Notes: generated by a model from the sequence alone, not told the origin. DNA of 64,000 nt from Candidatus Fimenecus sp. (GCA_045543095.1 JAZQMC010000001.1:623-64622), one strand, 5' to 3'; shown: positions 8,044 through 22,756, counted from the first letter of the stretch. Translations and numbers: made by a program.

Positions 8044-8058
8044 AATTCACACTCCTCC

Positions 8059-8673
8059 TTATGCAAGTAAGTTTTCAACGATTCCGGCAAAGCCGAAGAA
8101 TGCCATTGAAATAAACGATGCAGCTACAAGTGTTACAGGAAGTCCTTTGAAACTCTCAGGAACATCACTCTCTTCAATGCGTGAACGCATACCTGAGAAG
8201 AGCACCATTGCAAGAAGGAATCCAAGACCACAACCGAGTGAACTTACAATTGAGAAAAGGAACGCGTTAGGTTCTGTTACACCGTAGTCTGTAATATTGT
8301 TGATTGTTACGCCGAGAACTGCACAGTTTGTTGTGATAAGCGGAAGGTAAACACCAAGGCTCTTATGAAGTGCAGGGATATATTTCTTTAAGAAAATTTC
8401 AATAAACTGAACAAGTGCCGCAATAACAAGAATGAATACGATAGTCTGCATATAGCCCATATTAAGAGGCTCAAGAATGTAGGCTTGAATCGGCCATGTT
8501 ACTGCAGTTGCAACAAGCATAACAAAGATAACTGAAAGGCCCATACCAACTGACTGATTAACTTTCTTTGAAACGCCAAGGAATGGGCAGATACCTAAGA
8601 ATCTGCTTAAAACATAGTTGTCAACAAGTACAGAGGACATAATAATGATGATTAAGGTTTTTACCATTTCCAT
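8059..8673 (-). CDS. rnfA: Rnf complex subunit A
   Basis: 204 aa polytopic protein, RnfA/NqrE-like (LPLITTNCAVLG). Confidence 0.92.
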   Translation of the reverse strand: MEMVKTLIIIIMSSVLVDNYVLSRFLGICPFLGVSKKVNQSVGMGLSVIFVMLVATAVTWPIQAYILEPLNMGYMQTIVFILVIAALVQFIEIFLKKYIPALHKSLGVYLPLITTNCAVLGVTINNITDYGVTEPNAFLFSIVSSLGCGLGFLLAMVLFSGMRSRIEESDVPESFKGLPVTLVAASFISMAFFGFAGIVENLLA

Positions 8674-9372
8674 TTATTTGCCCTCCTTTTCTGTTGAACA
8701 TCCACCGTGACAGCTTGATGCTGACGGACATCCTGCACAAGAGAATTCTTTTTTCTTGATGAGCTTACCCTTTGTAATCTTATTAACTATGGCAATGAGA
8801 AGACCATAAACCATAAGACCGCCGGGAGCTTTTGCAAGAACGCTGATTGTTAAACCGTTTTCTACAAGGAACGGAATTTCGTTGCCTGCAAATGAACCTG
8901 CACCGATAACTTCACGGATTGTTGACATTGCGAGAAGTGCAATTGTGAAGCCGATACCCATTCCTATACCATCAAGTGCTGACTTGCCGATTGAGTTTTT
9001 ACCAGCAAACATTTCTGCACGACCTAAGATAATACAGTTAACAGTAATGAGTGCCAAGTAAACGCCCAAGGTTTCGTATAAATCAGGAATAAACGCTTGA
9101 ATAAGCATTTGAACTATTGTAACGAAGCCTGCAATAACAACTATGTAGCAAGGAATTCGTACTGTTTCGGGAATGAATTTGCGAAGTGCTGAAATAACAA
9201 TATTTGAGCAGATTAAAACTGCCATTGTTGCAAGGCCCATACCGAATGCCCCGTCAACCGTTGTTGTGGTTGCAAGTGTGGGGCAAGTACCGAGAATAAG
9301 AACAAAAACGGGATTTTCACGGAGAAGACCTTTTAAGAGAATTGACATATTGTTTTCTTTACTCATAATCAA
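8674..9372 (-). CDS. rnfE: Rnf complex subunit E
   Basis: 232 aa, RnfE/NqrD-like (LALITVNCIILGRAE). Cys-rich C-terminal tail. Confidence 0.92.
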   Translation of the reverse strand: MIMSKENNMSILLKGLLRENPVFVLILGTCPTLATTTTVDGAFGMGLATMAVLICSNIVISALRKFIPETVRIPCYIVVIAGFVTIVQMLIQAFIPDLYETLGVYLALITVNCIILGRAEMFAGKNSIGKSALDGIGMGIGFTIALLAMSTIREVIGAGSFAGNEIPFLVENGLTISVLAKAPGGLMVYGLLIAIVNKITKGKLIKKKEFSCAGCPSASSCHGGCSTEKEGK

Positions 9373-10550
9373 GCCACTCCTTCCATAATTTTAACTGCTT
9401 CAATCGCTTTACCAACACCGGTCTTATAACCATTTGTTGTGATTGTAGCACCGCTGATTGCGTCGATGTCTTTATAGTTTGTTTCGTCCTTACCGTTGAA
9501 CTGTGAATAGAAGTCTTTATTTGCACAAGCAGAACCGATGTTGTCAGTTTCGCTCTGTGCTGTTGTTACACAGTTGATTATTTTTGCATCTGCAGTAAGA
9601 GCAATCTTAATGTAGATATATTCGCCTGATGGATTATAGTAATGGTCACCGTTGATACCGAAACCTGCTGCGTGGATTTCAAGAACATAATTGCCACTCT
9701 TGGTCTTATATGCTTTATCAACGTGAGATGGCATATCAGCATATTTTGTAAGGTCGATTTCTTCCATTGAAGACTCCGCCATAATCTTTGCTGCAGACTC
9801 AACATTAGCCTTAACCTCGTCTGCAACCTCTGAAACTACTGTACCGTTAGCATCAACACCAACAAACACAGCTTCTTCACCGGAACCAACTACATAAACT
9901 GAACCTGCACCGTTATCTGCAGTATAAACTGCTGAAACTCCCTCAAGAACTTCACAGATAAATACTTCTGTGAACTTGTCGCCTGCAGGAAGTGCAGTTG
10001 CAAGATTGTCTGCAAGAATTTCTTCTTCTGTACGAATATCAACACTTGCACCACCGAGAATTGCAGCAGAATTGATAGCATCCTTAACTGCATCTCTGTA
10101 TGCACCTGTTGTCATTGTTGCACCTGAAACAGTTGCAAGTGCTTCAATAGTTTCGGCTGTTGCACCCTTTGTTGTTTCACCAAAGGTTTTTTCTACGCCG
10201 AGAGTTTCGTTACTTGAAAGGCAAACTGCACCTGTTACCGTACCGCTTGCGTCAACACCGCACATGATAATCATATCGGGGCCGTAACCTGTTGCGGTAA
10301 CCTTGAACACGCCACCGCCGTTTGAAGCTGAATATGCTTCAAGAACTGATGCGGGGAAAGTGTATTGGGTCATATCAACTGCAGTGAAGTCGCCACCCTC
10401 AGGCATTACTACGAGTAATGCTTCGTTAGCGGCTGCACCTGCATTTTTTTCAATAATGGGAGCTGTGACTGAGTTTGTTACCGCAAGAAGTGCCGCAACA
10501 ACCGCACAGATAACTGTAAGGGAAATGATGCTCTTTAAATGTTTTTTCAT
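9369..10550 (-). CDS. rnfG: Rnf complex subunit G, double-length form with two FMN_bind domains
   Basis: 393 aa with an N-terminal TM segment. Two flavinylation motifs: VSGATMTT (aa 141-148) and ISGATITT (aa 365-372). Confidence 0.85.
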   Translation of the reverse strand: MKKHLKSIISLTVICAVVAALLAVTNSVTAPIIEKNAGAAANEALLVVMPEGGDFTAVDMTQYTFPASVLEAYSASNGGGVFKVTATGYGPDMIIMCGVDASGTVTGAVCLSSNETLGVEKTFGETTKGATAETIEALATVSGATMTTGAYRDAVKDAINSAAILGGASVDIRTEEEILADNLATALPAGDKFTEVFICEVLEGVSAVYTADNGAGSVYVVGSGEEAVFVGVDANGTVVSEVADEVKANVESAAKIMAESSMEEIDLTKYADMPSHVDKAYKTKSGNYVLEIHAAGFGINGDHYYNPSGEYIYIKIALTADAKIINCVTTAQSETDNIGSACANKDFYSQFNGKDETNYKDIDAISGATITTNGYKTGVGKAIEAVKIMEGVA

Positions 10551-11473
10551 TTCTTTGCACCTCCGAACAGTTTACGGGTGCATTTGGCATCAATGAAGGG
10601 ATTTACAATATTCATAAGAAGAATTGCAAATGAAACGCCTTCAGGATATGCACCGAAGAAGCGGATAAGCACGGTAATAACACCTGCACCGATACCGAAG
10701 ATAATTTTACCCTTGGCATTTGAAGGTGATGTAACATAATCAGTTGCCATAAAGAATGCACCGATTAAAAGACCACCTGAAAGTGTCCAAGCAAGAGCCA
10801 TTTCAAAATTACCGCCCTCAAGCAAAAGAGTAAAGAGAAAGGCTGTACCGATGAATGCCACAGGAATATGCCAGCTGATTACTCTGCGAACAAGCAAGTA
10901 AATTCCGCCGATGATGAGTGCCAATGCACAAGTTTCACCGATAGCACCGCCGTTTTTACCGAGTAAAAGGTCAACAAGGTTTGGTAATACATCATTATCA
11001 AGGTCTGTAAGAGGTGTAGCACCCGAAACAGAATCCATACCTGCGGGGAAAACTGCCGATGTCATTGAACCGAAAGCCAGAAGCATAAACACACGTGCTG
11101 TGATTGCGGGGTTCACAATGTTTTTACCAAGTCCGCCAAATACACATTTTACAATAATAATAGCAAACGCAGAGCCGACTGCTGCCTGCCAAAGCGGAAT
11201 ATTTGCAGGAAGATTGAGAGCTAAAAGAAGACCTGTTACAACAGAGCTCAAATCACTTACTGTCTGTTCCTTTTTAACGATAATGTTGAAAAGGAGTTCA
11301 CACGCAACTGCTGAAATAACACAAGTTGCAACTACGAACAATGCGTTAATTCCAAAAAGCACAATACCTGCTATTGTTGCGGGAAGAAGAGCAATAATAA
11401 CATCAAGCATTATTCCCTGAGTGGTTTTCTTACCGTGAATATGAGGAGATACTGAAACATGAAGTTTTTCCAT
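10547..11473 (-). CDS. rnfD: Rnf complex subunit D
   Basis: 308 aa polytopic protein, NqrB/RnfD-like, with the SGATPL flavinylation motif. Confidence 0.93.
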   Translation of the reverse strand: MEKLHVSVSPHIHGKKTTQGIMLDVIIALLPATIAGIVLFGINALFVVATCVISAVACELLFNIIVKKEQTVSDLSSVVTGLLLALNLPANIPLWQAAVGSAFAIIIVKCVFGGLGKNIVNPAITARVFMLLAFGSMTSAVFPAGMDSVSGATPLTDLDNDVLPNLVDLLLGKNGGAIGETCALALIIGGIYLLVRRVISWHIPVAFIGTAFLFTLLLEGGNFEMALAWTLSGGLLIGAFFMATDYVTSPSNAKGKIIFGIGAGVITVLIRFFGAYPEGVSFAILLMNIVNPFIDAKCTRKLFGGAKK

Positions 11474-12780
11474 TATTTATTGCCCTCCTTTGCCTTATAT
11501 TCTTTAAGTGCACGCTTTGCAAGTTTATTTGTCTGAACAAGAGGACGATTTGCAGGACAACCGAATGAACAACATCCGCATTCCATACAAAAACCAAGGC
11601 CTGCTTTTTCAACCATTTCCATATCGCCTGTTTTATATCCCTTTACAACCGCAGGAACATTGATGCCGAACGGACAATTGTTGATACAAGCACCGCAACG
11701 GATACAAGCAGTGGTTTTAGGCATTTTTACTTCCTTTTTGTTGAAAGCGATAATCGCATTTGTCTGTTTAAGTACGGGAACCTGAAGATTAGGAACCGTA
11801 ACTCCCATCATAGGACCGCCATAAACAACTTTTTCAGGGTCACAATTAAAACCGCCGCAGAAGTCAAACACATCACTCAAAGCAGTTCCCACGGGAACAA
11901 TTACGTTCTTCGGTTCCTTTACTGCACCACCGTCAACAGTAATAATTCTCTCAACAAGTGGCATACCTGTTTTAAGATATGAACCGATAAACGCCATCGT
12001 TGATGAGTTGCACACAATACAACCTATGTCCACAGGGAGTTTGCCGGCTTCAATCTTTTTACCTGTTGTATGGTAAACAAGCACCTCTTCGCTGCCCTGA
12101 GGATATTTTGACGGAAGAATTGCAACCTTGACCTTACTGTTTTTTGACGCAATTTCGTTCATTTTTGCAATTGCCTCGGGTTTATTTTTTTCTATACCGA
12201 TGACAATTTTTGAAAAATTGAAATACTTATCAAGAGTTTCAACAGCAAGAGCAATATATTCTGCTTTTTCAATCATTGTAAGAGAGTCACTGGTTATGTA
12301 GGGTTCACATTCGGCACCGTTAATAACGAAAGTATCAACTTCCTTTTCAGTTGCAAGTTTTACATAGGTTGGAAAACCTGCACCGCCAAGACCCACTGCA
12401 CCACTTTTCTTAACTGCCTCAATTAAATCTTCCTTACTGTTGATTTCGGGAGGAGCGATAGATGAATCAGGAGTCATTGCACCGTCAGATTCAATTATAA
12501 TTGCAGGAACCTTGTTACCGTTTGATATAACAACATCCTCAATCTTTTTAATAGTTCCCGAAACACTTGAATGTACGGGAGAAGATATAAATCCATTTTG
12601 TTCAGCTATTAAAGTTCCCACATCTACATGGTCGCCAACTTTAACAACGGGAATGGCGGGCTTACCGATATGCATAACTGTGGGCAGAGTAACTGTTTTA
12701 ACATCAGTCATTCTGACAGCCGACATATTAGCCGTATTTTTTCTGTGTGGTACGTTAATACCGCGAATAGAAAAAGCCAT
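11473..12780 (-). CDS. rnfC: Rnf complex subunit C
   Basis: 435 aa with GLGGAGFPT (NADH/FMN site) and two C-terminal CxxCxxCxxxCP clusters. Confidence 0.94.
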   Translation of the reverse strand: MAFSIRGINVPHRKNTANMSAVRMTDVKTVTLPTVMHIGKPAIPVVKVGDHVDVGTLIAEQNGFISSPVHSSVSGTIKKIEDVVISNGNKVPAIIIESDGAMTPDSSIAPPEINSKEDLIEAVKKSGAVGLGGAGFPTYVKLATEKEVDTFVINGAECEPYITSDSLTMIEKAEYIALAVETLDKYFNFSKIVIGIEKNKPEAIAKMNEIASKNSKVKVAILPSKYPQGSEEVLVYHTTGKKIEAGKLPVDIGCIVCNSSTMAFIGSYLKTGMPLVERIITVDGGAVKEPKNVIVPVGTALSDVFDFCGGFNCDPEKVVYGGPMMGVTVPNLQVPVLKQTNAIIAFNKKEVKMPKTTACIRCGACINNCPFGINVPAVVKGYKTGDMEMVEKAGLGFCMECGCCSFGCPANRPLVQTNKLAKRALKEYKAKEGNK

Positions 12781-12965: not shown

Positions 12966-12994
12966 TTGACTTTATAATATCAAAGGAGTATCAT
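12966..12994 (+). promoter_or_regulatory. sigmaA-type promoter for the mrp-like operon (TTGACT-17-TATCAT)
   Basis: TTGACT at 12966-12971, a 17-nt spacer, TATCAT at 12989-12994. SD GAGGTGG precedes the ATG at 13048. Confidence 0.5.
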
Positions 12995-13047: not shown

Positions 13048-13521
13048 ATGATAATTTTACTTTTTCTTTTATGGATTTTGCTTAACGGCAGGTTTACCGC
13101 TGACGCAGGTATGCTTCAGATAGTAATTGTAGGAGTTATAGTGGCAGGTTTTGCCTATTGGTTTGCTCACAAGGCGTTAGGATATACTCTCAAAGCAGAA
13201 GTTCGCATGCTCAAAAAAACACCTATTCTTGCAGCTTATCTTGGTTTGCTTATTAAAGAAATCATTGTGGCAAATTTTCAAATGATTAAAATCGTAACCA
13301 GCAAAAAAGCAGAAATTCATCCGGTAATGATAAAAATAAGAATTCCTTTAAAAACACGCTTTGCAAGGGTGTTGCTCGCAAACTCAATCACCCTCACCCC
13401 CGGTACAATCACAGCAGAACTTGAAGGTGACCAGTTTACAATTCACTGTGTTGACACAGCCTTTGCAGAGGGTATGGAAAACAGTTCATTTGTAAAATTG
13501 CTTGAAAGGTTGGAAAAATAA
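13048..13521 (+). CDS. mrpE: Na+/H+ antiporter (Mrp/Mnh) subunit E
   Basis: 157 aa with the MnhE signature LANSITLTPGT. Confidence 0.85.
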   Translation: MIILLFLLWILLNGRFTADAGMLQIVIVGVIVAGFAYWFAHKALGYTLKAEVRMLKKTPILAAYLGLLIKEIIVANFQMIKIVTSKKAEIHPVMIKIRIPLKTRFARVLLANSITLTPGTITAELEGDQFTIHCVDTAFAEGMENSSFVKLLERLEK

Positions 13522-13522
13522 T

Positions 13523-13819
13523 ATGATTGAACAGGCTTATTCATATTTATATATTGCGGTTTGCATTTGTCTTGGAATTGCGATTATTATTACTCTTATC
13601 CGTTCAATTACCGCAAAAACCATTATCGGCAGATTTATTGGTATAAATATGCTCACAACAATTGTACTTATTGTAATCTGCGTTCTTACTCTTTTATTTA
13701 AAGAGGCCTATTTACCAGATATTGCACTTATCTATACACTTTTAAGCTGTATTGCAGTAATTCTTTTAAGTAAAATTTATGTTAACCTCTTCAAAAAGAA
13801 CAAAGGGGGTAAAAAGTAA
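13523..13819 (+). CDS. mrpF: Mrp/Mnh subunit F
   Basis: About 98 aa with 3 TM segments. I prefer the ATG at 13523, just after the mrpE stop. The track ORF starts at 13502. Confidence 0.75.
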   Translation: MIEQAYSYLYIAVCICLGIAIIITLIRSITAKTIIGRFIGINMLTTIVLIVICVLTLLFKEAYLPDIALIYTLLSCIAVILLSKIYVNLFKKNKGGKK

Positions 13820-14187
13820 TGCTTGAATGGATTCGTTTTGGCATTGTAGCCACACTTTTTGCTGCAGGTCTTATCGTTCTTTTTATCTCAATTTTCGGCA
13901 CATTCCGTTTTGACTATTCGCTTAATCGTATGCACTCATCAGCTATGTGCGATACACTTGTACTTATGCTTTTTATTGCGGCTTGCGTAATTGCTTCGGG
14001 TGTAAATGTAGTGTCCGGCAAATTCCTTTTGCTTTTACTTATTATGTGGTGCACTAGTCCGGTAGTGTCACATATATTTGTAAAAACCAAATATCTTACC
14101 GACGAAGCACTTTGTGAACACTGTGAAGTCCGTATTGATGACGCAGAACTTCACGAAAACGAGATTAAAAGGGAGGAAGAAAAATAA
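13819..14187 (+). CDS. mrpG: Mrp/Mnh subunit G
   Basis: 122 aa with 3 TM segments plus an acidic tail. The start overlaps the upstream stop. Confidence 0.75.
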   Translation: MLEWIRFGIVATLFAAGLIVLFISIFGTFRFDYSLNRMHSSAMCDTLVLMLFIAACVIASGVNVVSGKFLLLLLIMWCTSPVVSHIFVKTKYLTDEALCEHCEVRIDDAELHENEIKREEEK

Positions 14188-14498
14188 TGGAAGACATTAT
14201 CACCATATTTCGCGTTCTTCTTCTTATTTCGCTTATAATTTGTGCAATTGCCACTGCTCTTTCAAAAAGAGTTATGACCGCTGTTATCGTTTTTACATCT
14301 TACAGTATTGTTATGGCAGTTGTTTGGCTTTTGCTTCGCTCGCCCGACCTTGCTATTACCGAAGCAGCCGTCGGTGCAGGCGTTAACGGTGTGCTTTTCT
14401 TTTTAACACTTCGGAAACTTCATCTTATTGATAAAGATTTTAAAGATGACGAAACCGCAAAAAATACTGCGGAGGTGAATGAAAATGAAGAAATCTGA
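14187..14498 (+). CDS. DUF4040 / MbhD-like (MrpA C-terminal-domain-like) subunit
   Basis: 103 aa with the motif SPDLAITEAAVGAGV, typical of DUF4040/MnhB N-terminal modules. Confidence 0.7.
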   Translation: MEDIITIFRVLLLISLIICAIATALSKRVMTAVIVFTSYSIVMAVVWLLLRSPDLAITEAAVGAGVNGVLFFLTLRKLHLIDKDFKDDETAKNTAEVNENEEI

Positions 14499-15405
14499 TT
14501 TCACCAAAAACTTTAAGCAATGGTATAACGGGGAAATTAGTCTTGATGAAAAAATTTCGGAGCCAATCGAAAAAATTCCCGTTAAGCATATACCTGATGA
14601 ACCGCATCATATAAGAAAAACAATAAGAATATCCCCTAAACTTCAGAATGAAGAAATTAAAATCACAAAAACAGGATACCGTTTTTTCTCGATTATATTC
14701 TGTATTGTAATATGTGCGGTGCTTATAGGTACTGTTAACTTTTTACCCGGATTTGCCGACGAAAACGCTCCTACCGCCAACGAGGTTTATGAGCATTATG
14801 TGGGTGAAGGCAGGGACGAAACCGGTGCAGTAAACACCGTTGCGGGTATGATACTTGATTATCGTGCATTTGATACTCTTGGTGAATCATTTGTTCTTTT
14901 TACCGCTACCTGTGCGGTGCTTCTGCTTCTTGAAAAGGCAAAAAATGCCCCCATAAAGAAAAGAGAAACATTTACATTTTCAAACGACCCGATTGTATGC
15001 CTTGTTGTGAAAATCCTTGTACCTATTATCATCGTTTTTGGTATTTACGTACTCTTTAACGGTCATCTTTCCCCAGGTGGTGGATTCTCTGGAGGTGCAA
15101 TTCTCGGTACGGGCTTCATTCTTTTCGCAATGGCCTTTGGTGAAGATGTTGCCACAAGAATTATCTCTGCCAAAGCAGTTAAAGTGATAACAATCTGTTC
15201 ACTTTCTTTCTATTGTCTTTCAAAAAGTTATTCTTTCTTTACAGGTAACGAATTCAATGGAGTTCACTCAATTATAGGTCCCGGTACACCCGGCGATTTC
15301 CTCTCGGGCGGGCTTATTCTGCCTTTAAACCTTGCCGTTGGATTTGTTGTTTGTTGTACAATGTACAGCTTTTATATGATTTTCAAAAGGGGGCGTCTTG
15401 ATTGA
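14479..15405 (+). CDS. mrpB: Mrp/Mnh subunit B with an N-terminal extension of about 90 aa
   Basis: MnhB motif GAVNTVAGMILDYRAFDTLGESFVLFTA. Overlaps the previous gene by 20 nt. Confidence 0.8.
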   Translation: MKMKKSDFTKNFKQWYNGEISLDEKISEPIEKIPVKHIPDEPHHIRKTIRISPKLQNEEIKITKTGYRFFSIIFCIVICAVLIGTVNFLPGFADENAPTANEVYEHYVGEGRDETGAVNTVAGMILDYRAFDTLGESFVLFTATCAVLLLLEKAKNAPIKKRETFTFSNDPIVCLVVKILVPIIIVFGIYVLFNGHLSPGGGFSGGAILGTGFILFAMAFGEDVATRIISAKAVKVITICSLSFYCLSKSYSFFTGNEFNGVHSIIGPGTPGDFLSGGLILPLNLAVGFVVCCTMYSFYMIFKRGRLD

Positions 15406-15779
15406 ACTTTCTGATTAACTATGAAGAAGTTACCTCGATGATTCTCTTTGCAATCGGTTTTACAATGCTTGTTTTTTCAAAGAACATAATGAAGAAAATT
15501 CTCGGTCTTAACATTATGGACACGGGCGTATATCTTTTCCTTGCCTCAATGGGTTATATTGAAAACAAACTCACCCCCATTGTTCCCTCTACGGGCGATG
15601 TAAATGCACTTGACTATATTAACCCTATACCTGCAGGTCTTGTTCTTACAGGTATTGTTGTATCGGTAAGTTTTTCAGCCCTTATGCTTGCTTTAACCGT
15701 GCGTCTTTACAAAAAATACCGCACCTTAAATCTTGACGAGATTTATGAAAAATGCAGTAAGGAGGATGAAGACGAATAA
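15402..15779 (+). CDS. mrpC: Mrp/Mnh subunit C (NuoK-like)
   Basis: 125 aa with 3 TM segments. 4-nt overlap with mrpB. Confidence 0.8.
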   Translation: MNFLINYEEVTSMILFAIGFTMLVFSKNIMKKILGLNIMDTGVYLFLASMGYIENKLTPIVPSTGDVNALDYINPIPAGLVLTGIVVSVSFSALMLALTVRLYKKYRTLNLDEIYEKCSKEDEDE

Positions 15780-17287
15780 TGGATTTTATTAAGAATTTTC
15801 CTTTTATAACTATCGTTTTATCCTTGTTCTGCTCAGTTATCTGTTATGCTTTCAAAGATAAAAAAGCACGTTTTGTTTCATATTTTTTGTTAAGCTTATC
15901 AGGAGTCTTATCATTTAGCGTGCTTCTGTACAACCTTTTCTCTGAAACGGGTTATTTTGCTTACAGAATGGGCCATTATGATGCTCCCATCGGTAACGAA
16001 ATTTCAGCAGGACTTTTAGAGCCTTTCTTCGCCCTTCTTTTTGAAATTGTTATGCTTCTTGCAATCACAGGAGGTTACAACAGAATACAAAAAGACGTTG
16101 CAGAAGATAAGCAGAGATTTTTCTATATTATGGTTAATCTCACCCACGCGGCTCTTATGTCACTTTGCTATACAAATGATATTTACACTGCCTATGTATT
16201 CATTGAGATTTGTACAATCGCTTCATGTGCACTTCTTATGTCAAGCAAAAAAGACCGTTCACTTGTTGCGGCAACCCGCTATACAATTTTCAGTTTAATC
16301 GGTTCAAGTTTTGTCCTTATAGGTATAGTGCTTGTTTATTCTGTAACAGGACATCTTTTGTTCCCACAAATTTTTGAAGCAATTCAAACTCTTTGGGCAA
16401 CCGGACAATACACTAATCCGCTTACAATCGCTTTAGGGCTTGTGATTTCAGGTCTTGCAATTAAAAGCGGTATGTTCCCGTTCCATTGGTGGATGCCCGA
16501 CACCTACGGCACCGCAACCCCCTCAGCATCCGGTATTCTTTCAGGTGTCGTTTCAAAGGGATACATTTTCTTGCTACTTAAAATGATTTACCGTGTTATC
16601 GGTACAGAAGTATATATGGAATCAGGAATTCACAACATCCTTCTTGTGTTCGGCGTATGCGGTATGATTGTAGGTTCAGTTTCTGCAATTAGGACTTCAA
16701 ATATAAACTTTATGATTGCCTATTCTTCTGCTGCCCAAATTGGTTACATCTATATGGGACTTGGTCTTGGCACAAAAGAAGCATTGTTGGCGTCTTTATT
16801 CCAGATTGTTGCCCACGCTCTTACAAAGCCAATGCTTTTCCTTGCGGCAGGCGGACTTTCAGACACTGTGGGTGGAAAAAAAGATTTCGACTCGCTTCGT
16901 TCTTCTGCCCACTATAACAAGTCTGCGGGTATTGCTTTTGCGGCGGGTGCACTTTCAATGGTAGGTATTCCGATATTTGCGGGCTTTGTTCCTAAAATGC
17001 TTTTCTCTATTTCCGCTTTCGGTCACGGAACAAAAACTTATATTGTACTTATCGCTCTTGCACTCAGTACAATTTTGAATGTTGTTTATTTCTTACGAAC
17101 ACTTGTAAACATTTATAGCCCTGCAATAGTAACACTTGAACGCAAAAAAATCACTTTCGGTGCAGTTAAGGGATTTTCAATCGTTGTGCTTATTATGGCA
17201 ACTATCAATTTGCTTGTAGGTCTTGACTCACAACCGATTATCTCGCTCTTTGAAAAGGGTATCGAGATATTTATGAATATTCGTTAA
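15779..17287 (+). CDS. mrpD: antiporter-like subunit (MrpD/NuoN family), paralogue 1
   Basis: 502 aa proton-conducting membrane transporter fold (FPFHWWMPDTY...P). Confidence 0.85.
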   Translation: MDFIKNFPFITIVLSLFCSVICYAFKDKKARFVSYFLLSLSGVLSFSVLLYNLFSETGYFAYRMGHYDAPIGNEISAGLLEPFFALLFEIVMLLAITGGYNRIQKDVAEDKQRFFYIMVNLTHAALMSLCYTNDIYTAYVFIEICTIASCALLMSSKKDRSLVAATRYTIFSLIGSSFVLIGIVLVYSVTGHLLFPQIFEAIQTLWATGQYTNPLTIALGLVISGLAIKSGMFPFHWWMPDTYGTATPSASGILSGVVSKGYIFLLLKMIYRVIGTEVYMESGIHNILLVFGVCGMIVGSVSAIRTSNINFMIAYSSAAQIGYIYMGLGLGTKEALLASLFQIVAHALTKPMLFLAAGGLSDTVGGKKDFDSLRSSAHYNKSAGIAFAAGALSMVGIPIFAGFVPKMLFSISAFGHGTKTYIVLIALALSTILNVVYFLRTLVNIYSPAIVTLERKKITFGAVKGFSIVVLIMATINLLVGLDSQPIISLFEKGIEIFMNIR

Positions 17288-17303
17288 GGGAGGGAGTTTA
17301 ATT

Positions 17304-18752
17304 ATGTTTAATATGCTTTTCACAATTATTTTCCCTGTCCTTTGCGGACTTTCAATGCCCTTACTTAAAAAAATAAGCAATCGCAAAATCAAAATGGCTC
17401 TTGTGGTGAGTCTTCAGGCAATCACAACTGTTTTTGGTATTTTAACTGTCACAAAAGAAAATGTGACAACAAAGCCTTTTGTTTTCGCCGACAATCTTAC
17501 CCTCGGATTCACAGCCGATTTGTTTGCAAAATATTTTTGTGTAATCATTACAGTTGCATGGTTGCTTGTAACAATTTACGGCACAATTTATATGAAACAC
17601 GAAAAAAGCGAAGAGAGATTTTTCCTTTTCTCGTTTTTAACTGAAGGTGCTATGCTCGGTGCGGCATTCTCAAACAGTCTTGTTTCAATGTATGTATTCT
17701 ATGAGCTTGTTACTATCTGTTCAATGCCTTTAGTTCTTCATTCGCTTTCAAAAGAATCTGTTTCAGCGGCTAAAAAATATCTTTATTATTCAGTTGCAGG
17801 TGCATTCTTAGCACTTTTTGGAATTTTTATAATCGGTGCAAATTCCGACTCACTCAATTTTATTGCAGGAGGATTTATTGCTGAGGCTTCTCCTCTTATG
17901 CTCACTGCAGTATTTGTAATGTGTCTTGGCTTTGGTGCAAAAGCAGGTCTTTTCCCGCTTCACGGTTGGTTGCCCACAGCACACCCCGTTGCCCCCGCCC
18001 CCGCAAGTGCATTACTTTCTGCAATAATAGCAAAAGCGGGCGTTATTGCAATTATTCGTACATTATTCTTTGCGGTAGGTGCTGATAAACTTGCGGGAAC
18101 ATGGGTACAGACCGCACTTTTAAGCCTTGCATTACTCACAGTTCTTATGGGGTCAATGATGGCTTTTCGCGAAAAAATACTTAAAAAGCGTTTGGCATTT
18201 TCTACTGTCAGTCAGATTTCTTATGTATTCTGTGGCCTTTTTCTCTTCACTGAAGAAGCTGTTGACGGTGCATTATGGCAGATTATTGCCCACGCGGTTG
18301 TAAAAGTAGGATTATTCCTTTGTGCAGGTGCAGTAATCTTCCTTTACGGAAAAACAAAGGTAGATGAGCTTAACGGCATTGGTAAAAAAATGCCTGTAAC
18401 CTTTGTGTGCTTCACAATTCTTTCACTTTCTTTAATTGGTATTCCCCCGACAGCAGGATTTTACAGTAAATGGGAACTTGCAATTGCATCACTTGATAAC
18501 AGTGTAATCGGTGCTTTCTCATATATTATCCCCATAGTGCTTCTCGCTTCTGCACTTTTAACTGCGGGATACCTTCTTGAAATAACAATCAAGGCATTCT
18601 TCAAAACCGAAGACGGTGATACAAAAACCGTTGCTGAGTCGAAAATTATGTCTTCAGTTCTTATTGTGCTTTCTGCAATCGCTTTGCTTGGCGGTGTTTT
18701 CTCTACACAATCAGGTGAAATCATTTCAGAAATTGCAAAGTCCATTTTTTAA
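17304..18752 (+). CDS. mrpD: antiporter-like subunit (MrpD/NuoM family), paralogue 2
   Basis: 482 aa with the motif GLFPLHGWLPTAHPVAPAPASALLS. Confidence 0.85.
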   Translation: MFNMLFTIIFPVLCGLSMPLLKKISNRKIKMALVVSLQAITTVFGILTVTKENVTTKPFVFADNLTLGFTADLFAKYFCVIITVAWLLVTIYGTIYMKHEKSEERFFLFSFLTEGAMLGAAFSNSLVSMYVFYELVTICSMPLVLHSLSKESVSAAKKYLYYSVAGAFLALFGIFIIGANSDSLNFIAGGFIAEASPLMLTAVFVMCLGFGAKAGLFPLHGWLPTAHPVAPAPASALLSAIIAKAGVIAIIRTLFFAVGADKLAGTWVQTALLSLALLTVLMGSMMAFREKILKKRLAFSTVSQISYVFCGLFLFTEEAVDGALWQIIAHAVVKVGLFLCAGAVIFLYGKTKVDELNGIGKKMPVTFVCFTILSLSLIGIPPTAGFYSKWELAIASLDNSVIGAFSYIIPIVLLASALLTAGYLLEITIKAFFKTEDGDTKTVAESKIMSSVLIVLSAIALLGGVFSTQSGEIISEIAKSIF

Positions 18753-18766
18753 CGAGGTAGTCAGAT

Positions 18767-20221
18767 ATGAATGAATTGTTTTTAATTATTCCTGTTTTTC
18801 TGCCGATTATTTTGGGTGCGGTACTGTTTTTCATTCCTTTCAAAAATCAGAAGCATCGTAACGCTTATGTTATGGCTGCATTATTACTTTCATCTGTTTC
18901 TGTATGGGTTTCAGTATTCACCGTTCCTGACAAGGCTTTTACAATTTTACAGTTTACCGATGACCTTTCGTTCTCATTAAGACTTGACGGTGCGGGAAAA
19001 ATCTTCTCTTGTCTTTCAGCAACACTTTGGCCCATCACCGCAGTTTATGCTTTTGACTATATGAAGCACGAAAAACATCTTCAGATGTTTTATTGTTTCT
19101 TTGTTATGGCATTCGGCACAACAATGGGCGTTGCAATGGCAGAAAATATACTTACAATGTATCTCTTCTATGAAATGCTTACATTGTCAACAATTCCGCT
19201 TGTTGCTCACGGAATGACCAAAAAGCACAACAGAGCAGCAAGAAAATATATGATATATTCAATCGGCGGTGCGGCTTTCGCCTTTGCGGGCGTGGCTTTT
19301 CTCATCGTCAACAATGCTGATACATTCCGTCTTGGCGGAAACATTATTACTGTTGATAACGAAGCATTGGCACAGATTATTTATCTGTTCGCATTTATGG
19401 GCTTTGGTGTTAAATCGGCAATTTTTCCACTTCACAGTTGGTTGCCTACTGCTTCAGTTGCCCCCACACCTGTTACCGCACTTCTTCACGCAGTTGCAGT
19501 TGTTAAAGCAGGTGCATTTGCACTTATTCGTCTTACTTATTATGCCTATGGTACAGAATTTTTATATGGCAGTTGGGTTCAATACACCGTAATGGCATTC
19601 TCAATTTTCACAATACTTTACGGTTCAGTAAGTGCTCTTCGTCAGAAGCAATTTAAACGCAGACTTGCTTATTCAACGGTTTCAAATCTTTCATATATTG
19701 GCTTTGCAACAACACTTATGACACCCGCAGGTCTTGTAGCAGGATTCTGCCACTTGATTTTCCATTCGGTAATCAAAATCGGTGCTTTCTTTGCAGCAGG
19801 TTCAGTGCTTCACAACAGTGAGCGTGAATTTGTTCCTCAACTTGAGGGAATCGGCAAAAAAATGCCTTGGACATTCACATTTTTCACTGTTTCTGCATTG
19901 GCACTTACGGGTATTCCCCCATTCTGCGGATTTTTCAGTAAATGGTATATTTCAACCGCCGCAATTGAAACTGCGGGAGTGCTTCAGATTATTGGTGTTG
20001 TAGTATTGCTCATTTCTGCATTACTTACCGCGATTTATATGTTCTCACCAATTATCAGGGCTTTCTTCCCACGTGAAAATTCAGAAATCAGCCTTGACGG
20101 TGCAAAAGAGGCAAAACCTGCAATGCTTATTCCAATGGGAATTTGTGCAGTGCTTTGCATTGTAATGGGTATTTTTGTTAAAGTACCTGTTGAAATTATC
20201 GGGGAGGTGCTTGGATTATGA
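18767..20221 (+). CDS. mrpD: antiporter-like subunit (MrpD/NuoM family), paralogue 3
   Basis: 484 aa with the motif FPLHSWLPTASVAPTPVTALLH. Confidence 0.85.
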   Translation: MNELFLIIPVFLPIILGAVLFFIPFKNQKHRNAYVMAALLLSSVSVWVSVFTVPDKAFTILQFTDDLSFSLRLDGAGKIFSCLSATLWPITAVYAFDYMKHEKHLQMFYCFFVMAFGTTMGVAMAENILTMYLFYEMLTLSTIPLVAHGMTKKHNRAARKYMIYSIGGAAFAFAGVAFLIVNNADTFRLGGNIITVDNEALAQIIYLFAFMGFGVKSAIFPLHSWLPTASVAPTPVTALLHAVAVVKAGAFALIRLTYYAYGTEFLYGSWVQYTVMAFSIFTILYGSVSALRQKQFKRRLAYSTVSNLSYIGFATTLMTPAGLVAGFCHLIFHSVIKIGAFFAAGSVLHNSEREFVPQLEGIGKKMPWTFTFFTVSALALTGIPPFCGFFSKWYISTAAIETAGVLQIIGVVVLLISALLTAIYMFSPIIRAFFPRENSEISLDGAKEAKPAMLIPMGICAVLCIVMGIFVKVPVEIIGEVLGL

Positions 20222-22197
20222 GTATTTTAGTTGCTCTTTGCGTATTTTTCCCCGTTGTTGCTGCAATATTGGCTTATCCAATGCACAAGAAAAGCGAAAA
20301 GGGTTGCAACGCATTTGTTATACTTTCAACGCTTACAGTTCTTGTGTCTGCGGGAATTATGGCTTTTACAAGTGGTGAAAGCACAGTTTCAATTCTCTCA
20401 ATGAATTTTCAGACAAGCGGCTTTCAATATGTTTATGCAATAATCACTGCGTTTATGTGGTTTTGTGCAGCTCTTATCTCACCACAATATTTTAAAGGTC
20501 ATCATAATATCGGCAGATATTACCTATTCTTCCTTATAACTCTTGGGGCTATAATGGGAGTTTTCTTATCAGCAGATTTGATTACAACTTTTATCTTCTT
20601 TGAGATTATGTCATTGGCCTCTTATGTTTGGGTTGTTCATGAACAGGATAAGGACGCTATGAGTGCGGGCAAAACTTATCTTACCATCGCTGTATTGGGT
20701 GGTATGGTTCTGCTTATGGGACTTTTCCTGCTTTACAGTATCACAGGCACTCTTGTAATTTCAGAGCTTTATGACGCAGTGATTAGTGCAGGTAGCAGTA
20801 CAAAACTTTATGTTGCAGTATTCTGTATGCTTTTCGGCTTTGGTGCAAAAGCGGGTCTTTTCCCCTTGCATATCTGGTTACCGAAGGCTCACCCCGTAGC
20901 ACCCGCCCCCGCAAGTGCATTACTTTCAGGTGTGCTTACAAAAACAGGTATTTTCGGAATGCTCATTATCACCGCAAATATTATGCGTGGTGATAATATT
21001 TGGGGATACACACTTCTCATTCTCGGCACAATTACAATGGTGCTTGGTGCGGTTATTGCGGTGTTCTCAACAAACATCAAAAGAACTCTCGCCTGCTCAT
21101 CACTTTCGCAGATTGGTTTTATCACCGTGGGCGTTTCAATGATTTGCCTTTTAGGTGAAGAAAACGCACTTGCCGCCAACGGAACAGTTCTTTATATGCT
21201 TAATCACTCAATGGTGAAACTTGCATTATTCCTTTGTGCCGGTGCAATTTATGCGGGTGCACATACACTTGATATAAATAAACTTAAAGGTTACGGCAGA
21301 AATAAACCCGAAATTTTAATTCCGTTCCTTTTCGGTGCCTGCAGTCTTGCGGGTATTCCCGGATTTGCAGGTTATCTTTCAAAAACTCTCGTTCACGAGG
21401 CAATTGTGGAATATGCTCACCACGGCGGAGCATTCATCACCACTATTGAATGGCTTTTCCTTTTTTCAGGCGGACTTACTGTCGCATATATGTTAAAACT
21501 TTTTATCACAATTTTTGTGCAAAAGCCAACAGAAGATACCGTAAAGGCTCACGGCAAAACATCATTTATGAGTGCTTTGTCGCTTGCACTTTCATCAGTT
21601 ATGCTACTCATTGTGGGTGTATTGCCTCACGCACTTGCAGAAAAGATTTCAGGTCTTATGCTCCCATTTGTTGACGGCCACAAAAGTCACCACGAGGTTC
21701 ACTATTTTGCTTTTGCAAATCTTAAGGGTGTGCTTATTTCTCTTACAATCGGTATTGTTGTTTATCTTGTAGTAATCTGCAAAGCACTTATGAAGAATGA
21801 TAATGGAAAGAAAATTCATTACAACCCCCTTGCTGACAAATTTTCTATTGAAAACAATATTTATATTCCTCTTCTTAAGGGTATTGGTTTTGTTTTCACG
21901 GTTATTCTTCGTGCTTGCAGTGATATTACTGATATTATTCTTTTTATTCTTGACAAAACAGTATTTAAAATGGCAAAAGAACCCACAGAGCCACATGAGA
22001 GAAAATACTTTTACGCTCTCGGTTCTCTTTATGGCAAACTTTTCCGAAAAGGCAAAGAGGTTCAGGCGGAACGTTTTGTAAGGGCTTCTGAAACAATTGA
22101 CCTAACAACAACCAACCTTTCAAAAAACTTCTCATTTGCTCTGTTTATGACCTGTCTTGGAATAAGCATAATTCTCCTGTTCCTTATTTTAAAATAA
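20218..22197 (+). CDS. mrpA: NuoL/MrpA-like antiporter subunit with a C-terminal lateral-helix-type extension
   Basis: 659 aa with the motif GLFPLHIWLPKAHPVAPAPASALLSG. A long amphipathic C-terminal segment ends in a final TM segment. Confidence 0.8.
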   Translation: MSILVALCVFFPVVAAILAYPMHKKSEKGCNAFVILSTLTVLVSAGIMAFTSGESTVSILSMNFQTSGFQYVYAIITAFMWFCAALISPQYFKGHHNIGRYYLFFLITLGAIMGVFLSADLITTFIFFEIMSLASYVWVVHEQDKDAMSAGKTYLTIAVLGGMVLLMGLFLLYSITGTLVISELYDAVISAGSSTKLYVAVFCMLFGFGAKAGLFPLHIWLPKAHPVAPAPASALLSGVLTKTGIFGMLIITANIMRGDNIWGYTLLILGTITMVLGAVIAVFSTNIKRTLACSSLSQIGFITVGVSMICLLGEENALAANGTVLYMLNHSMVKLALFLCAGAIYAGAHTLDINKLKGYGRNKPEILIPFLFGACSLAGIPGFAGYLSKTLVHEAIVEYAHHGGAFITTIEWLFLFSGGLTVAYMLKLFITIFVQKPTEDTVKAHGKTSFMSALSLALSSVMLLIVGVLPHALAEKISGLMLPFVDGHKSHHEVHYFAFANLKGVLISLTIGIVVYLVVICKALMKNDNGKKIHYNPLADKFSIENNIYIPLLKGIGFVFTVILRACSDITDIILFILDKTVFKMAKEPTEPHERKYFYALGSLYGKLFRKGKEVQAERFVRASETIDLTTTNLSKNFSFALFMTCLGISIILLFLILK

Positions 22198-22242
22198 GAA
22201 TAAAAAGCTTTTAAAATCCATATTCTATACGGGGTGATAAAT

Positions 22243-22716
22243 ATGGATAAAAGCAAACTGAAAACTTATGGTCTTGCAATTCTGTTGACTGAAGCGGTCG
22301 GCGGAATTGCAGGACTTTTTACATCTATGGGTATGGATGAATATATGCGGGCAGAAAAACCGCCACTTACTCCGCCCGCCATTGTGTTCCCGATTGTGTG
22401 GACAATTCTCTATGCACTTATGGGCATAAGCGTTGCAAGGATATGGCTTTCGCCCGCAACAAAAGAGAGAAATCATGGGCTTATAATTTATGCGGTGCAG
22501 TTATTCTTTAATTTCTTTTGGAGTATTATATTCTTCAATTTGCAGGCTTACGGGTTCGCATTTTTATGGCTTATAGCATTATGGGCACTCATACTCGCAA
22601 TGATTATTATTTTTAACAAAACCGACCGACTTGCAGCCCTCTTGCAAATCCCATATTTAATATGGGTAACCTTTGCGGGGTATCTTAATTTAATGGTGTG
22701 GTTATTAAACAGATAG
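22243..22716 (+). CDS. tspO: TspO/MBR family tryptophan-rich sensory protein
   Basis: About 157 aa with 5 TM segments, Trp-rich (PPAIVFPIVWTILYALMG). I prefer the ATG at 22243 after GGGGTGA. Confidence 0.85.
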   Translation: MDKSKLKTYGLAILLTEAVGGIAGLFTSMGMDEYMRAEKPPLTPPAIVFPIVWTILYALMGISVARIWLSPATKERNHGLIIYAVQLFFNFFWSIIFFNLQAYGFAFLWLIALWALILAMIIIFNKTDRLAALLQIPYLIWVTFAGYLNLMVWLLNR

Positions 22717-22721
22717 ATATA

Positions 22722-22756
22722 AAAAACGGTGAGAATAATCTCACCGTTTCTTATTT
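22722..22756. terminator. bidirectional intrinsic terminator
   Basis: Stem AAACGGTGAGA/TCTCACCGTTT with flanking A and T runs, between convergent tspO and the aminopeptidase gene. Confidence 0.7.

What the first reader, a model, noticed from the sequence alone, without database searches (positions are those of the whole stretch)
13048..22197. Mrp cluster with Mbh-like gene order and four antiporter-like subunits but no redox module
**Seen in the sequence:** the gene order is E-F-G-DUF4040-B-C-D-D-D-A(L-like).
- This is not the Bacillus mrpABCDEFG order.
- The first eight genes match, function for function, the order I recall for the membrane arm of Pyrococcus Mbh (MbhA-H = E, F, G, DUF4040, B-type, C, D).
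- In place of hydrogenase-module genes, the cluster continues with two more MrpD/NuoM-like paralogues and a 659-aa NuoL-like subunit. That subunit has a long C-terminal amphipathic extension ending in a TM segment (lateral-helix type).
- The total is four antiporter-like subunits, one more than the complex I membrane arm. MrpB also has an extra N-terminal region of about 90 aa.

**Inference:** either an oversized stand-alone antiporter, or a membrane arm that docks to a redox partner encoded elsewhere. The divergent Rnf is the obvious candidate to test.
Basis: partly seen in the sequence, partly recalled or inferred. Interest (0 to 1): 0.6.

Follow-up and report, generated by a model that had tools for sequence, protein, structure and literature searches.

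The report
Ten-gene, four-channel stand-alone Mrp antiporter
This is an intact ten-gene operon for a sodium/proton-type (Mrp) membrane antiporter with four proton-channel subunits instead of the usual two; it is common but untested in gut Firmicutes, has no redox partner, and in this lineage sits next to Rnf in genomes with no rotary ATPase.

Summary
Ten tightly coupled genes (13048-22197, + strand) encode MrpE, F, G, an MbhD-like protein, an MbhE+MnhB fusion, MrpC, three MrpD-type subunits and a 659-aa MrpA-N/NuoL-like subunit with a lateral-helix tail.

- **Stand-alone.** The 97%-complete genome has no NuoH, NuoB or NuoD homologue, and these four are its only antiporter-like genes.
- **Conserved.** The same gene order recurs in all loci with enough DNA, out of at least 505 matching loci in gut Clostridia. 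A three-channel sister type also exists.
- **Ancient paralogues.** They are 25-37% identical to each other, each forms its own clade, and all keep the channel residues.
- **Rnf is not an obligate partner.** Rnf is adjacent only in the window's near relatives, and one genus carries the cluster with no RnfD.

Best reading: an enlarged member of the known "group 3" Mrp class, with no experimental characterisation in the searched literature. This scan reached the same verdict earlier on other DNA (e1-928384).

New here:
- In the window's genus, the five cluster-bearing genomes are exactly the five with no rotary ATPase.
- In the window's Rnf-linked near relatives (one exception, L006), conserved acidic residues of MrpF and MrpG are replaced.

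So the transported cation is less certain in this genome than in the rest of the family.

The parts
12966..12994 (+). Promoter-like site for the mrp operon (TTGACT-17-TATCAT). It lies back to back with a perfect consensus promoter for rnfC on the minus strand (12888-12860).
   Evidence: Consensus scan. A pattern match only, not evidence of function.
13048..13521 (+). mrpE (157 aa)
   Evidence: PF01899 MNHE, E=1.3e-29.
13502..13819 (+). mrpF (105 aa; the true start may be the ATG at about 13523). The conserved Asp of the 'DR' motif is Gly here (IIGRF).
   Evidence: PF04066, E=7e-07. Gly or Asn at this column in the window and 8 Rnf-adjacent relatives; Asp in 62 other loci.
13819..14187 (+). mrpG (122 aa). 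A Glu that is at least 95% conserved elsewhere is Lys at position 91.
   Evidence: PF03334, E=1.9e-13. E91K/R is specific to the Rnf-linked near relatives.
14187..14498 (+). MbhD-like protein (103 aa), the counterpart of the first half of the MrpA C-terminal domain. It carries the conserved PDLAITEAAVG Glu.
   Evidence: PF13244 MbhD, E=9e-19. Aligns to the P. megaterium MrpA C-terminus. The Glu is present in 69 of 69 loci.
14479..15405 (+). Fusion protein (308 aa): a variable charged leader (about aa 1-65), an MbhE domain (aa 80-156, FDTLGE motif) and an MnhB/MrpB domain (aa 174-296, GHLSPGGGF motif). It is MbsE-like.
   Evidence: PF20501 + PF04039. NF009161 matches aa 61-304. Alignments. The motifs are conserved in 70/70 and 67/70 loci.
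15402..15779 (+). mrpC / NuoK-like (125 aa)
   Evidence: PF00420, E=7e-23; NF005621 MrpC.
15779..17287 (+). D1, an antiporter-like subunit of the MbhH/MbsH/NuoN type (502 aa), predicted to sit next to MrpC.
   Evidence: PF00361. Best PDB matches are MbsH, MbhH and MrpD, with NuoN sixth. Groups with MbhH, MbsH and NuoN in the tree at 95/92. E143, K229, K260, H346 and K406 are present.
17304..18752 (+). D2, the extra antiporter-like subunit (482 aa). It is the sister paralogue of D3 and is missing from the three-channel sister clusters.
   Evidence: PF00361 + PF00662. The D2 and D3 clades are sisters at 100/99. 37% identical to D3. E134, K213, K244, H330 and K389 are present. Absent in L100-L109 and L084.
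18767..20221 (+). D3, an antiporter-like subunit (484 aa). [quoted passage not shown]
   Evidence: PF00361. Best PDB match is MrpA 7qru_A. 38.6% identical to the S. meliloti pSymA MrpD-like protein. Tree. Channel residues.
20218..22197 (+). L-like subunit (659 aa): an MrpA-N-domain/NuoL-type antiporter-like core, then TM15, a beta-hairpin, a lateral amphipathic helix of about 94 aa and TM16. It has no fused MrpB-type domain.
   Evidence: PF00361. AlphaFold model. Foldseek best match MrpA, TMq 0.76. Forms its own clade at 100/99, sister to D2+D3 and outside the MrpA/NuoL/HyfD clade. E129, K211, K242, H330 and K389 are present.
22234..22716 (+). tspO (160 aa), a possible 11th cistron. It is not part of the conserved cluster. 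A terminator-like hairpin follows at 22724-22749.
   Evidence: PF03073, E=1.4e-45. The only good terminator-like hairpin between the L stop codon and the end of tspO is the one just after tspO; the other candidate (22270-22316) lies inside tspO. TspO follows the cluster only in L007 and G009.
7237..12780 (-). Divergent rnfCDGEAB operon. It is a neighbour only in this lineage. The link is probably functional, through the ion circuit, not structural.
   Evidence: Pfam hits. Adjacency is confined to the window's near relatives.

Best explanation
The ten genes encode one self-contained membrane complex of the Mrp (CPA3) family, of the 'group 3' type that has the archaeal Mbh/Mrp gene order.

**Inferred architecture.** E, F, G, MbhD, MbhE-B and C form the cation-translocating end. 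A row of four antiporter-like proton channels follows in gene order: D1 (N-like, next to MrpC), D2, D3, and a distal MrpA-N/NuoL-like subunit. The lateral helix of that last subunit runs back along the row.

**Inferred mechanism.** It exchanges a monovalent cation, most likely Na+, for protons. No redox input is involved. The number of protons per cycle is probably higher than in two-channel Mrp. This follows the extension logic that Steiner and Sazanov proposed for 1 to 4 antiporter-like subunits.

**Role in this genome (inferred).** The genome has Rnf and two Na+-decarboxylase genes but no rotary ATPase, H+-PPase or complex I. Here the complex most likely links the Na+ cycle to the proton gradient and to pH homeostasis. 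It is probably co-regulated with Rnf from the shared 267-bp promoter region.

**Shown versus inferred.** Shown: gene content, conservation, intact channel residues, absence of a redox module. Inferred: subunit order, ion identity, stoichiometry, direction of transport.
For: **Composition**
- All Mrp modules are present, and MrpA is split into three genes.
- The cluster holds the genome's only four PF00361 genes. The genome has no NuoH, NuoD or NuoB.

**Conservation**
- The order E-F-G-mD-B-C-D1-D2-D3-L is the same in all about 66 loci with enough DNA (one swaps E and F, one has a second D3 match). These span Acutalibacteraceae, Oscillospiraceae, Lachnospiraceae, Erysipelotrichaceae and Christensenellales.
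- No flank gene is conserved.

**Paralogues are old and intact**
- Each paralogue forms a starred clade, and the clades have congruent internal topology.
- TM5 Glu, TM7 Lys, TM8 Lys, TM11 His and TM12 Lys are present in all four paralogues. They are present in every orthologue checked except one residue in one.
- The Glu of MbhD, the Glu of the MbhE part and the His of MnhB are conserved in 67-70 of 70 loci.

**Structure of the L subunit**
- Its fold best matches MrpA.

**Bioenergetic context in this genome**
- No PF00006 or PF00137 match.
- No tblastn hit to either V-ATPase operon of a relative.
- No H+-PPase.
- Two OAD_beta genes.

**Literature**
- Group 3 Mrp and the P. furiosus mrpEFGBB'CD operon: PMC8415708.
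- Extension of the mechanism to 1-4 antiporter-like subunits: PMC7419157.
- A published Rnf-Mnh locus read as linking the Na+ and H+ gradients: PMC8359318.
Against: - No transport assay exists for any member of this cluster type.
- In the window and its Rnf-linked near relatives, the MrpF Asp is replaced. Simulations of Bacillus Mrp treat this residue as central to Na+ handling (Asp38 MrpF, PMC9568556). It is Gly or Asn here, and a conserved MrpG Glu is Lys or Arg. Na+ specificity is therefore less safe for this genome than for the family.
- The connector between TM15 and TM16 is no longer in four-channel clusters than in three-channel ones (median 130 vs 125 aa). Its length therefore does not show that the helix spans all three D subunits.
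- The L subunit does not fall inside the MrpA/NuoL clade in the tree.
- The tail of the model has low confidence.
Confidence: 0.72

Rival explanations
1. The cluster is a membrane arm that docks physically to Rnf, or to another redox or energy-input module encoded elsewhere. The result would be a redox-driven multi-channel pump.
For: - Rnf and the cluster are divergently transcribed from one 267-bp region with strong promoter-like sites.
- The adjacency is kept in the window's near relatives, down to 59-66% identity of the L subunit.
- Complex-I-type enzymes with 4 or 5 pump subunits exist (PMC9040806, PMC7419157).
Against: - Rnf is not adjacent in about 60 other loci.
- All four genomes of genus g41 (96-100% complete) match the cluster's L subunit and have no RnfD. 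The cluster is complete or near-complete in two of them and looks degraded in one.
- The genome has no NuoH, NuoB or NuoD homologue.
- No flank gene is conserved.
- No structural precedent is known for Rnf binding an Mrp module.
Confidence: 0.06
2. In the window's Rnf-linked near relatives specifically, the complex no longer exchanges Na+. It has changed cation (for example K+ or Ca2+) or works as a different kind of proton conductor, because acidic residues of the cation-entry subunits were lost.
For: - MrpF D43 is Gly or Asn and MrpG E91 is Lys or Arg in all eight near relatives compared.
- Such changes affect 4 of 25 conserved columns in F+G against 10 of 595 in the other eight subunits (Fisher p=0.0016).
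- Mrp with non-Na+ specificity is known: Thermomicrobium roseum Ca2+/H+ (PMC5703873).
Against: - The other ion-path residues (MbhD Glu, MbhE Glu, MnhB His) and all channel residues are intact.
- The role of the MrpF Asp comes from simulation and mutagenesis in Bacillus, not from this family.
- The MrpG change lies just after TM3 and may be outside the ion path.
Confidence: 0.15
3. The extra D genes are recent tandem duplicates or decaying copies, so the cluster is functionally an ordinary two-channel Mrp.
For: D2 and D3 are sister paralogues, and a three-channel sister type without D2 exists.
Against: - D2 and D3 are only 37% identical. Orthologues across families are 42-55% identical.
- Both clades are starred and span the same families, with congruent topology.
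- All five channel residues are kept in both.
Confidence: 0.02

Closest known systems
Stand-alone group 3 Mrp of Pyrococcus furiosus (PF1147-53, mrpEFGBB'CD; PMC8415708)
   Same: - Order E-F-G, then MbhD/E/B-type genes, then C, then D.
- No redox module and no full-length mrpA.
- Subunit fusions among MbhD/E/F-type domains.
   Different: - The archaeal operon has one antiporter-like subunit and no lateral-helix subunit. This cluster has four, including an MrpA-N-like one.
- The fusion differs: MbhD+E in P. furiosus MrpB, MbhE+F here.
- The archaeal complex has deletion-strain physiology data; this cluster has no data of any kind.
Group 1 and group 2 Mrp (Bacillus pseudofirmus 7qru, Anoxybacillus flavithermus 6z16, Dietzia 7d3u)
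   Same: - Every functional module is present.
- The L subunit's best structural match is MrpA (TMq 0.76).
- The Glu/Lys/His channel residues are conserved.
   Different: - MrpA is split into three genes here.
- There are two additional D-type subunits.
- The gene order differs.
- The TM15-TM16 connector is 117 aa against 46 aa in P. megaterium MrpA.
- The L subunit lies outside the MrpA/NuoL clade.
- The MrpF Asp is lost in this genome.
Membrane arm of MBH/MBS (MbhA-H; 6cfw, 6u8y)
   Same: - The gene order corresponds to MbhA-H.
- D1 groups with MbhH, MbsH and NuoN.
- The MbhE-MbhF fusion matches MbsE.
   Different: - There are no MbhI-N or MbsJ-N genes in the cluster or the genome.
- Three further antiporter-like subunits take their place.
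Complex I variants with four or five pump subunits (Nitrospira 2M; rhizobial 'green' complex I; Ca. Manganitrophus Complex_I_3; Chadwick et al. 2018 as cited in PMC7419157 and PMC9040806)
   Same: - A row of at least four antiporter-like subunits with a lateral-helix subunit at the end.
- D3 is 38.6% identical to the first MrpD-like subunit of S. meliloti pSymA green complex I. That subunit pairs with the middle subunit of the three-channel type at 98/98, on the D3 side of the tree; the join of that pair to D3 is weaker, 81/69.
   Different: Those enzymes are driven by a redox (NADH:quinone) module. This cluster has none and keeps the Mrp cation module instead.
Three-channel sister cluster E-F-G-MbhD-MbhE-B-C-D-D-L (for example Peptoclostridium acidaminophilum DSM 3953, locus L084)
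   Same: Same order and the same kind of L subunit. It is found in 10 of 18 class-level hits.
   Different: It lacks D2, and MbhE and MnhB are separate genes. Identity is 31-41% for L and 34-41% for D1 and D3.
Rnf-Mnh locus of Natranaerofaba carboxydovora (PMC8359318)
   Same: A multisubunit Mnh/Mrp antiporter is encoded together with a Na+-Rnf. The authors read this as linking the Na+ and H+ gradients.
   Different: A soda-lake extremophile with a Na+ F1F0 ATPase. I did not compare the sequences here.

Membership tests
Mrp / CPA3 multisubunit cation:proton antiporter | All seven Mrp functions are present: the MrpA N-domain, the MrpA C-domain, and B, C, D, E, F, G. | tested here: met
   Pfam and NCBIfam hits for every module. 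MbhD plus the MbhE part align to the MrpA C-terminus.
Mrp / CPA3 multisubunit cation:proton antiporter | Conserved TM5 Glu, TM7 Lys, TM8 Lys and TM12 Lys/Glu in the antiporter-like subunits. | tested here: met
   Present in D1, D2, D3 and L. Present in all orthologues checked except one residue in L036 D3.
Mrp / CPA3 multisubunit cation:proton antiporter | Conserved acidic and His residues of the cation path: Glu687 and Glu780 of MrpA, His34 of MrpB, Asp38 of MrpF (B. pseudofirmus numbering, PMC9568556). | tested here: inconclusive
   - The MbhE-part Glu and the MnhB His are conserved.
- The MbhD Glu sits one helical turn from the Bacillus position.
- The MrpF Asp is Gly in this genome.
Mrp / CPA3 multisubunit cation:proton antiporter | Measured cation/H+ antiport activity. 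| not testable with these tools
   No assay data were found for this cluster type.
Group 1 or group 2 Mrp (mrpABCDEFG / mrpA'CDEFG) | A full-length MrpA (N-domain fused to the C-domain) and the order A-B-C-D-E-F-G. | tested here: not met
   The order is E-F-G-mD-(mE+B)-C-D-D-D-L, and MrpA is split.
Group 3 Mrp (as defined in PMC5703873 and PMC8415708) | All subunit functions are present but the order is irregular, there is no full-length mrpA, and mrpD is sometimes in several copies. | tested here: met
MBH / MBS / complex I-type redox-driven pumps | A NuoH/MbhM-type membrane anchor plus NuoB/MbhJ and NuoD/MbhL subunits. | tested here: not met
   No PF00146, PF00346 or PF01058 match in the 97%-complete genome. 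The controls matched in 11 of 14 named genomes.
Hypothetical Rnf-Mrp supercomplex | Conserved co-occurrence and adjacency of Rnf with the cluster. | tested here: not met
   Adjacency is limited to the window's near relatives. Genus g41 matches the cluster's L subunit in all four genomes and has no RnfD.

The most novel reading that the evidence does not exclude
In the window's lineage the Rnf-Mrp pair replaces the rotary ATPase as the core of membrane energisation. The cells have only Na+ pumps (Rnf and two Na+-decarboxylases). They have no F/V-ATPase, H+-PPase or complex I. The four-channel Mrp, whose cation-entry subunits are remodelled (MrpF Asp to Gly, MrpG Glu to Lys), would then be the main converter between sodium-motive and proton-motive force. 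This would make it a bacterium with a chemiosmotic circuit but no chemiosmotic ATP synthesis.
Probability: 0.3. Interest if true: 0.7.

Novelty: new variant of a known kind. Interest (0 to 1): 0.5.

Why it matters
Mrp antiporters are regarded as the ancestral module of complex I and the membrane-bound hydrogenases. How the number of proton channels sets the ion stoichiometry is still an open mechanistic question.

This family offers natural three-channel and four-channel versions of one machine with no redox module attached. Some occur in cultivable gut bacteria such as Schaedlerella arabinosiphila and Peptoclostridium acidaminophilum. That makes the question directly testable: measure H+ per Na+ with and without D2.

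The family is also unrecognised in gut-microbiome annotation. Source names for its members are 'NADH dehydrogenase' or 'sodium:proton antiporter'.

The ATPase-less, Rnf-linked sublineage would, if confirmed on closed genomes, be an unusual bioenergetic design.

Tried and rejected
**Lateral-helix scaling.** I expected the TM15-TM16 connector to be longer in four-channel than in three-channel clusters, as with the 26-aa insert of Nitrospira 2M NuoL. It is not: median 130 vs 125 aa. The connector is longer than in MrpA (46 aa) and E. coli NuoL (81 aa).

**General complementarity with rotary ATPase.**
- It is perfect in the genus sample: 5 of 5 cluster-bearing genomes lack the ATPase, 0 of 20 others do.
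- It fails elsewhere. All 10 cluster-bearing genomes tested in other families have ATPases.
- Of five genomes with Rnf-adjacent clusters reached through loci, two show ATPase genes. In one of them only fragments on short contigs.
- It is therefore one lineage, possibly one event.

**Conserved neighbours as hidden partners.** None exists; the largest flank family is in 8-10 of about 70 loci.

**Literature.** I found no characterisation of this cluster. Chadwick et al. 2018 is not held.

**Organism name.** The cluster look-up gave no names. The genus is probably Candidatus Fimenecus or a neighbour in Acutalibacteraceae, judged only from the titles of the closest loci.

**Not available.** An MbsH' sequence for the tree, and AlphaFold-multimer.

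Full report
**1. What is there**

Between 13048 and 22197 lie ten + strand ORFs. Their junctions are overlaps of 1-20 nt or gaps of 14-16 nt. Pfam and NCBIfam identify them in this order:

| Gene | Length | Assignment |
|---|---|---|
| mrpE | 157 aa | PF01899 |
| mrpF | 105 aa | PF04066 |
| mrpG | 122 aa | PF03334 |
| MbhD-like | 103 aa | PF13244 |
| fusion | 308 aa | MbhE domain (PF20501, aa 80-156) + MnhB domain (PF04039, aa 174-296) |
| mrpC / NuoK-like | 125 aa | PF00420 |
| D1, D2, D3, L | 502, 482, 484, 659 aa | PF00361 |

No NCBIfam equivalog model reaches its cut-off, so these are divergent members of their families.

A promoter-like site lies at 12966-12994. The only good terminator-like hairpin after the last cluster gene follows tspO, at 22724-22749. 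Upstream and divergent is rnfCDGEAB.

**2. The last subunit**

An AlphaFold model built on 31 homologues has pLDDT 79.5 and pTM 0.77. It shows:
- a 14-helix antiporter core;
- TM15 (499-523) and a beta-hairpin;
- helices at 544-581 and 596-637;
- a terminal TM (640-658).

The tail is modelled at only pLDDT 39-73. Hydropathy independently places TMs at 505-523 and 640-658. Foldseek ranks MrpA first (7qru_A, TMq 0.76), then NuoL.

The protein is therefore the N-domain of MrpA with its lateral helix. The MrpA C-domain is encoded separately, as MbhD plus the first half of the fusion protein. The gene is an MbhE-MbhF fusion like MbsE (PMC8415708), preceded by a variable charged leader.

**3. No redox module**

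The window's genome is 1.87 Mb in 30 contigs and 97% complete.
- It has exactly four PF00361 genes, all in this cluster.
- It has no match to NuoH (PF00146), NuoD/NiFe large subunit (PF00346) or NuoB (PF01058).
- The same searches matched in 11 of 14 named control genomes.

**4. Distribution and synteny**

A scan of one genome per species found at least 505 loci encoding a relative of the L subunit. The best 80 come from gut and rumen Clostridia:
- Acutalibacteraceae, Oscillospiraceae, Lachnospiraceae (including the cultured Schaedlerella arabinosiphila DSM 106076) and Christensenellales;
- a few records labelled Erysipelotrichaceae or Bacilli.

Findings from these loci:
- In every locus with enough DNA (about 66) the order is E-F-G-mD-B-C-D1-D2-D3-L. 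One locus swaps E and F, and one has a second D3 match. Each D gene best matches the same paralogue of the window.
- No flanking gene family recurs in more than 8-10 loci.
- In an even sample of the class, 18 of 398 genomes in 8 families have an L orthologue.
- Reading those loci shows two sister types. Seven loci are of the four-channel type seen here. Ten are of a three-channel type that lacks D2 and has MbhE and MnhB as separate genes. The annotated P. acidaminophilum megaplasmid also carries this three-channel type.

**5. Age and integrity of the paralogues**

Within the window the four large subunits are 25-37% identical. Orthologues from other families are 42-55% identical.

An IQ-TREE analysis used 55 rows and the LG+C20 model. 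References were E. coli NuoL/M/N and HyfB/D/F, P. megaterium and S. clavuligerus MrpA/D, S. meliloti green complex I, and P. furiosus MbhH and MbsH. The last two were transcribed. Results:
- There are four starred clades with congruent internal topology.
- D1 groups with MbhH, MbsH and NuoN (95/92).
- D2 and D3 are sisters (100/99).
- The middle subunit of the three-channel type and the first MrpD-like subunit of green complex I pair with each other (98/98). The pair falls on the D3 side with weaker support (81/69).
- The L clade is sister to D2+D3 (91/96). It lies outside the MrpA/NuoL/HyfD clade (99/97).

All four paralogues keep the TM5 Glu, TM7 Lys, TM8 Lys, TM11 His and TM12 Lys. So do all orthologues checked, with one exception at one residue. 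The 'recent decaying duplicates' alternative is refuted.

**6. Rnf**

- Rnf is divergently adjacent only in the window's near relatives: L001-L007, L077, G009, G017.
- All 24 sampled genomes of the genus have RnfD, whether or not they have the cluster.
- In another genus, g41, all four genomes (96-100% complete) match the cluster's L subunit. None has RnfD. Of the three g41 loci read, one holds all ten genes, one is cut by its contig end and one looks degraded.

Rnf is therefore not an obligate partner. A published precedent for Rnf and Mnh sharing a locus reads it as linking the Na+ and H+ gradients (PMC8359318).

**7. Context found in passing**

*No rotary ATPase.*
- The genome has no match to PF00006 or PF00137.
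- tblastn with every ORF of the two V-ATPase operons of a same-genus relative finds nothing, while genes flanking those operons match.
- Among 24 same-genus genomes, the four that carry the cluster are exactly the four with no PF00006 match. The other 20 have 2-5 matches and no cluster.
- This is not general. All ten cluster-bearing genomes tested from other families have ATPases. Two of five further genomes with Rnf-adjacent clusters show ATPase genes.
- Related genomes are not independent, so this may be a single event.

*Other pumps.* The genome also lacks an H+-PPase. It has two Na+-decarboxylase beta-subunit genes.

**8. A remodelled cation module**

I compared the eight loci of the window's Rnf-linked near relatives with about 60 others. 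I looked at columns that are at least 95% conserved outside that group.
- In MrpF and MrpG, 4 of 25 such columns are replaced in every near relative: F D43G/N, G52S/T, F83C and G E91K/R.
- In the other eight subunits, 10 of 595 are replaced (Fisher p=0.0016).
- The MrpF Asp corresponds to Asp38 of B. pseudofirmus MrpF. Simulations place this residue among those central to Na+ binding and transfer (PMC9568556).
- L006, which is also Rnf-adjacent, keeps the Asp.

I cannot explain this change. It lowers confidence in Na+ as the substrate in this genome.

**9. Comparison with what is known**

The cluster meets the published definition of group 3 Mrp (PMC5703873, PMC8415708). It fails the definitions of groups 1 and 2 and of the redox-driven relatives.

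Four or five antiporter-like subunits in one complex are known only for complex I variants (PMC7419157, PMC9040806). Reviews mention group 3 clusters with several mrpD genes. I found no description or assay of this ten-gene type.

An earlier follow-up in this scan (e1-928384) reached the same verdict on another genome. My synteny, tree and genome searches were done independently and agree with it.

**10. Verdict**

This is a real, intact and widely conserved operon. It is a new variant of a known kind, not a categorically new system. The docking idea is unsupported. Interest is moderate. It is raised somewhat by the natural three- versus four-channel comparison the family offers and by the ATPase-less, Rnf-linked sublineage with altered MrpF and MrpG.

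Noticed in passing
whole genome G000 (the window is C1:623-64622): No F- or V-type rotary ATPase was found. PF00006 and PF00137 give no match, and tblastn with two V-ATPase operons of a same-genus relative gives no hit. In the genus sample, the cluster-bearing genomes are exactly the ATPase-less ones (5/5 vs 0/20).
   Followed up: partly
window 13502-13819 (mrpF) and 13819-14187 (mrpG): Replacements specific to the window's Rnf-linked near relatives, at positions conserved in at least 95% of other loci: MrpF D43G/N, G52S/T and F83C; MrpG E91K/R. They are enriched in these two subunits (4/25 vs 10/595 columns).
   Followed up: partly
G001:C13 (locus L090) versus window 7237-12780: The Rnf proteins of a cluster-less same-genus relative are only 47-60% identical to the window's. 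RF1, Sua5 and the M18 peptidase are 70-84% identical. The Rnf next to the cluster may be a diverged or replaced copy.
   Followed up: no
G000:C13:6874-7722: A second, divergent RnfD/NqrB-family gene (open frame 385 aa, E=1e-45). It is present in nearly all genomes of the genus.
   Followed up: no
window 9369-10550 (-): RnfG is double length (393 aa) with two FMN_bind stretches. The same length (395 aa) occurs in G009 and G017.
   Followed up: partly
window 22234-22716: tspO follows the last mrp gene after 36 nt. The only good terminator-like hairpin in the stretch lies just after tspO. The same arrangement occurs in G009 and L007 but not in more distant loci.
   Followed up: partly
locus L083 (S. 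meliloti pSymA, CP140882.1 683458-689843): The 'green' complex I has nuoJ-K, an MrpD-like gene (487 aa), a small ORF, an MrpD-like gene (586 aa), then nuoM-N. Its first MrpD-like subunit is 38.6% identical to D3 and pairs with the clostridial three-channel middle subunit at 98/98. This hints that this Mrp family supplied those subunits.
   Followed up: partly
G093:C29:13003-14856 (locus L098): In one species of genus g41 the L gene has two in-frame TAA stops. Only D2 and L were recognisable in the locus, so the cluster may be degrading there.
   Followed up: no
G000:C7:48405-49508 and C11:6077-7213: Two Na+-translocating decarboxylase beta-subunit genes (PF03977) are present and there is no H+-PPase. 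The genome looks built on a Na+ economy.
   Followed up: no
locus L108 (G082:C1:2292463-2309139): A three-channel-type cluster that ends in two consecutive L-like genes (650 and 667 aa).
   Followed up: no
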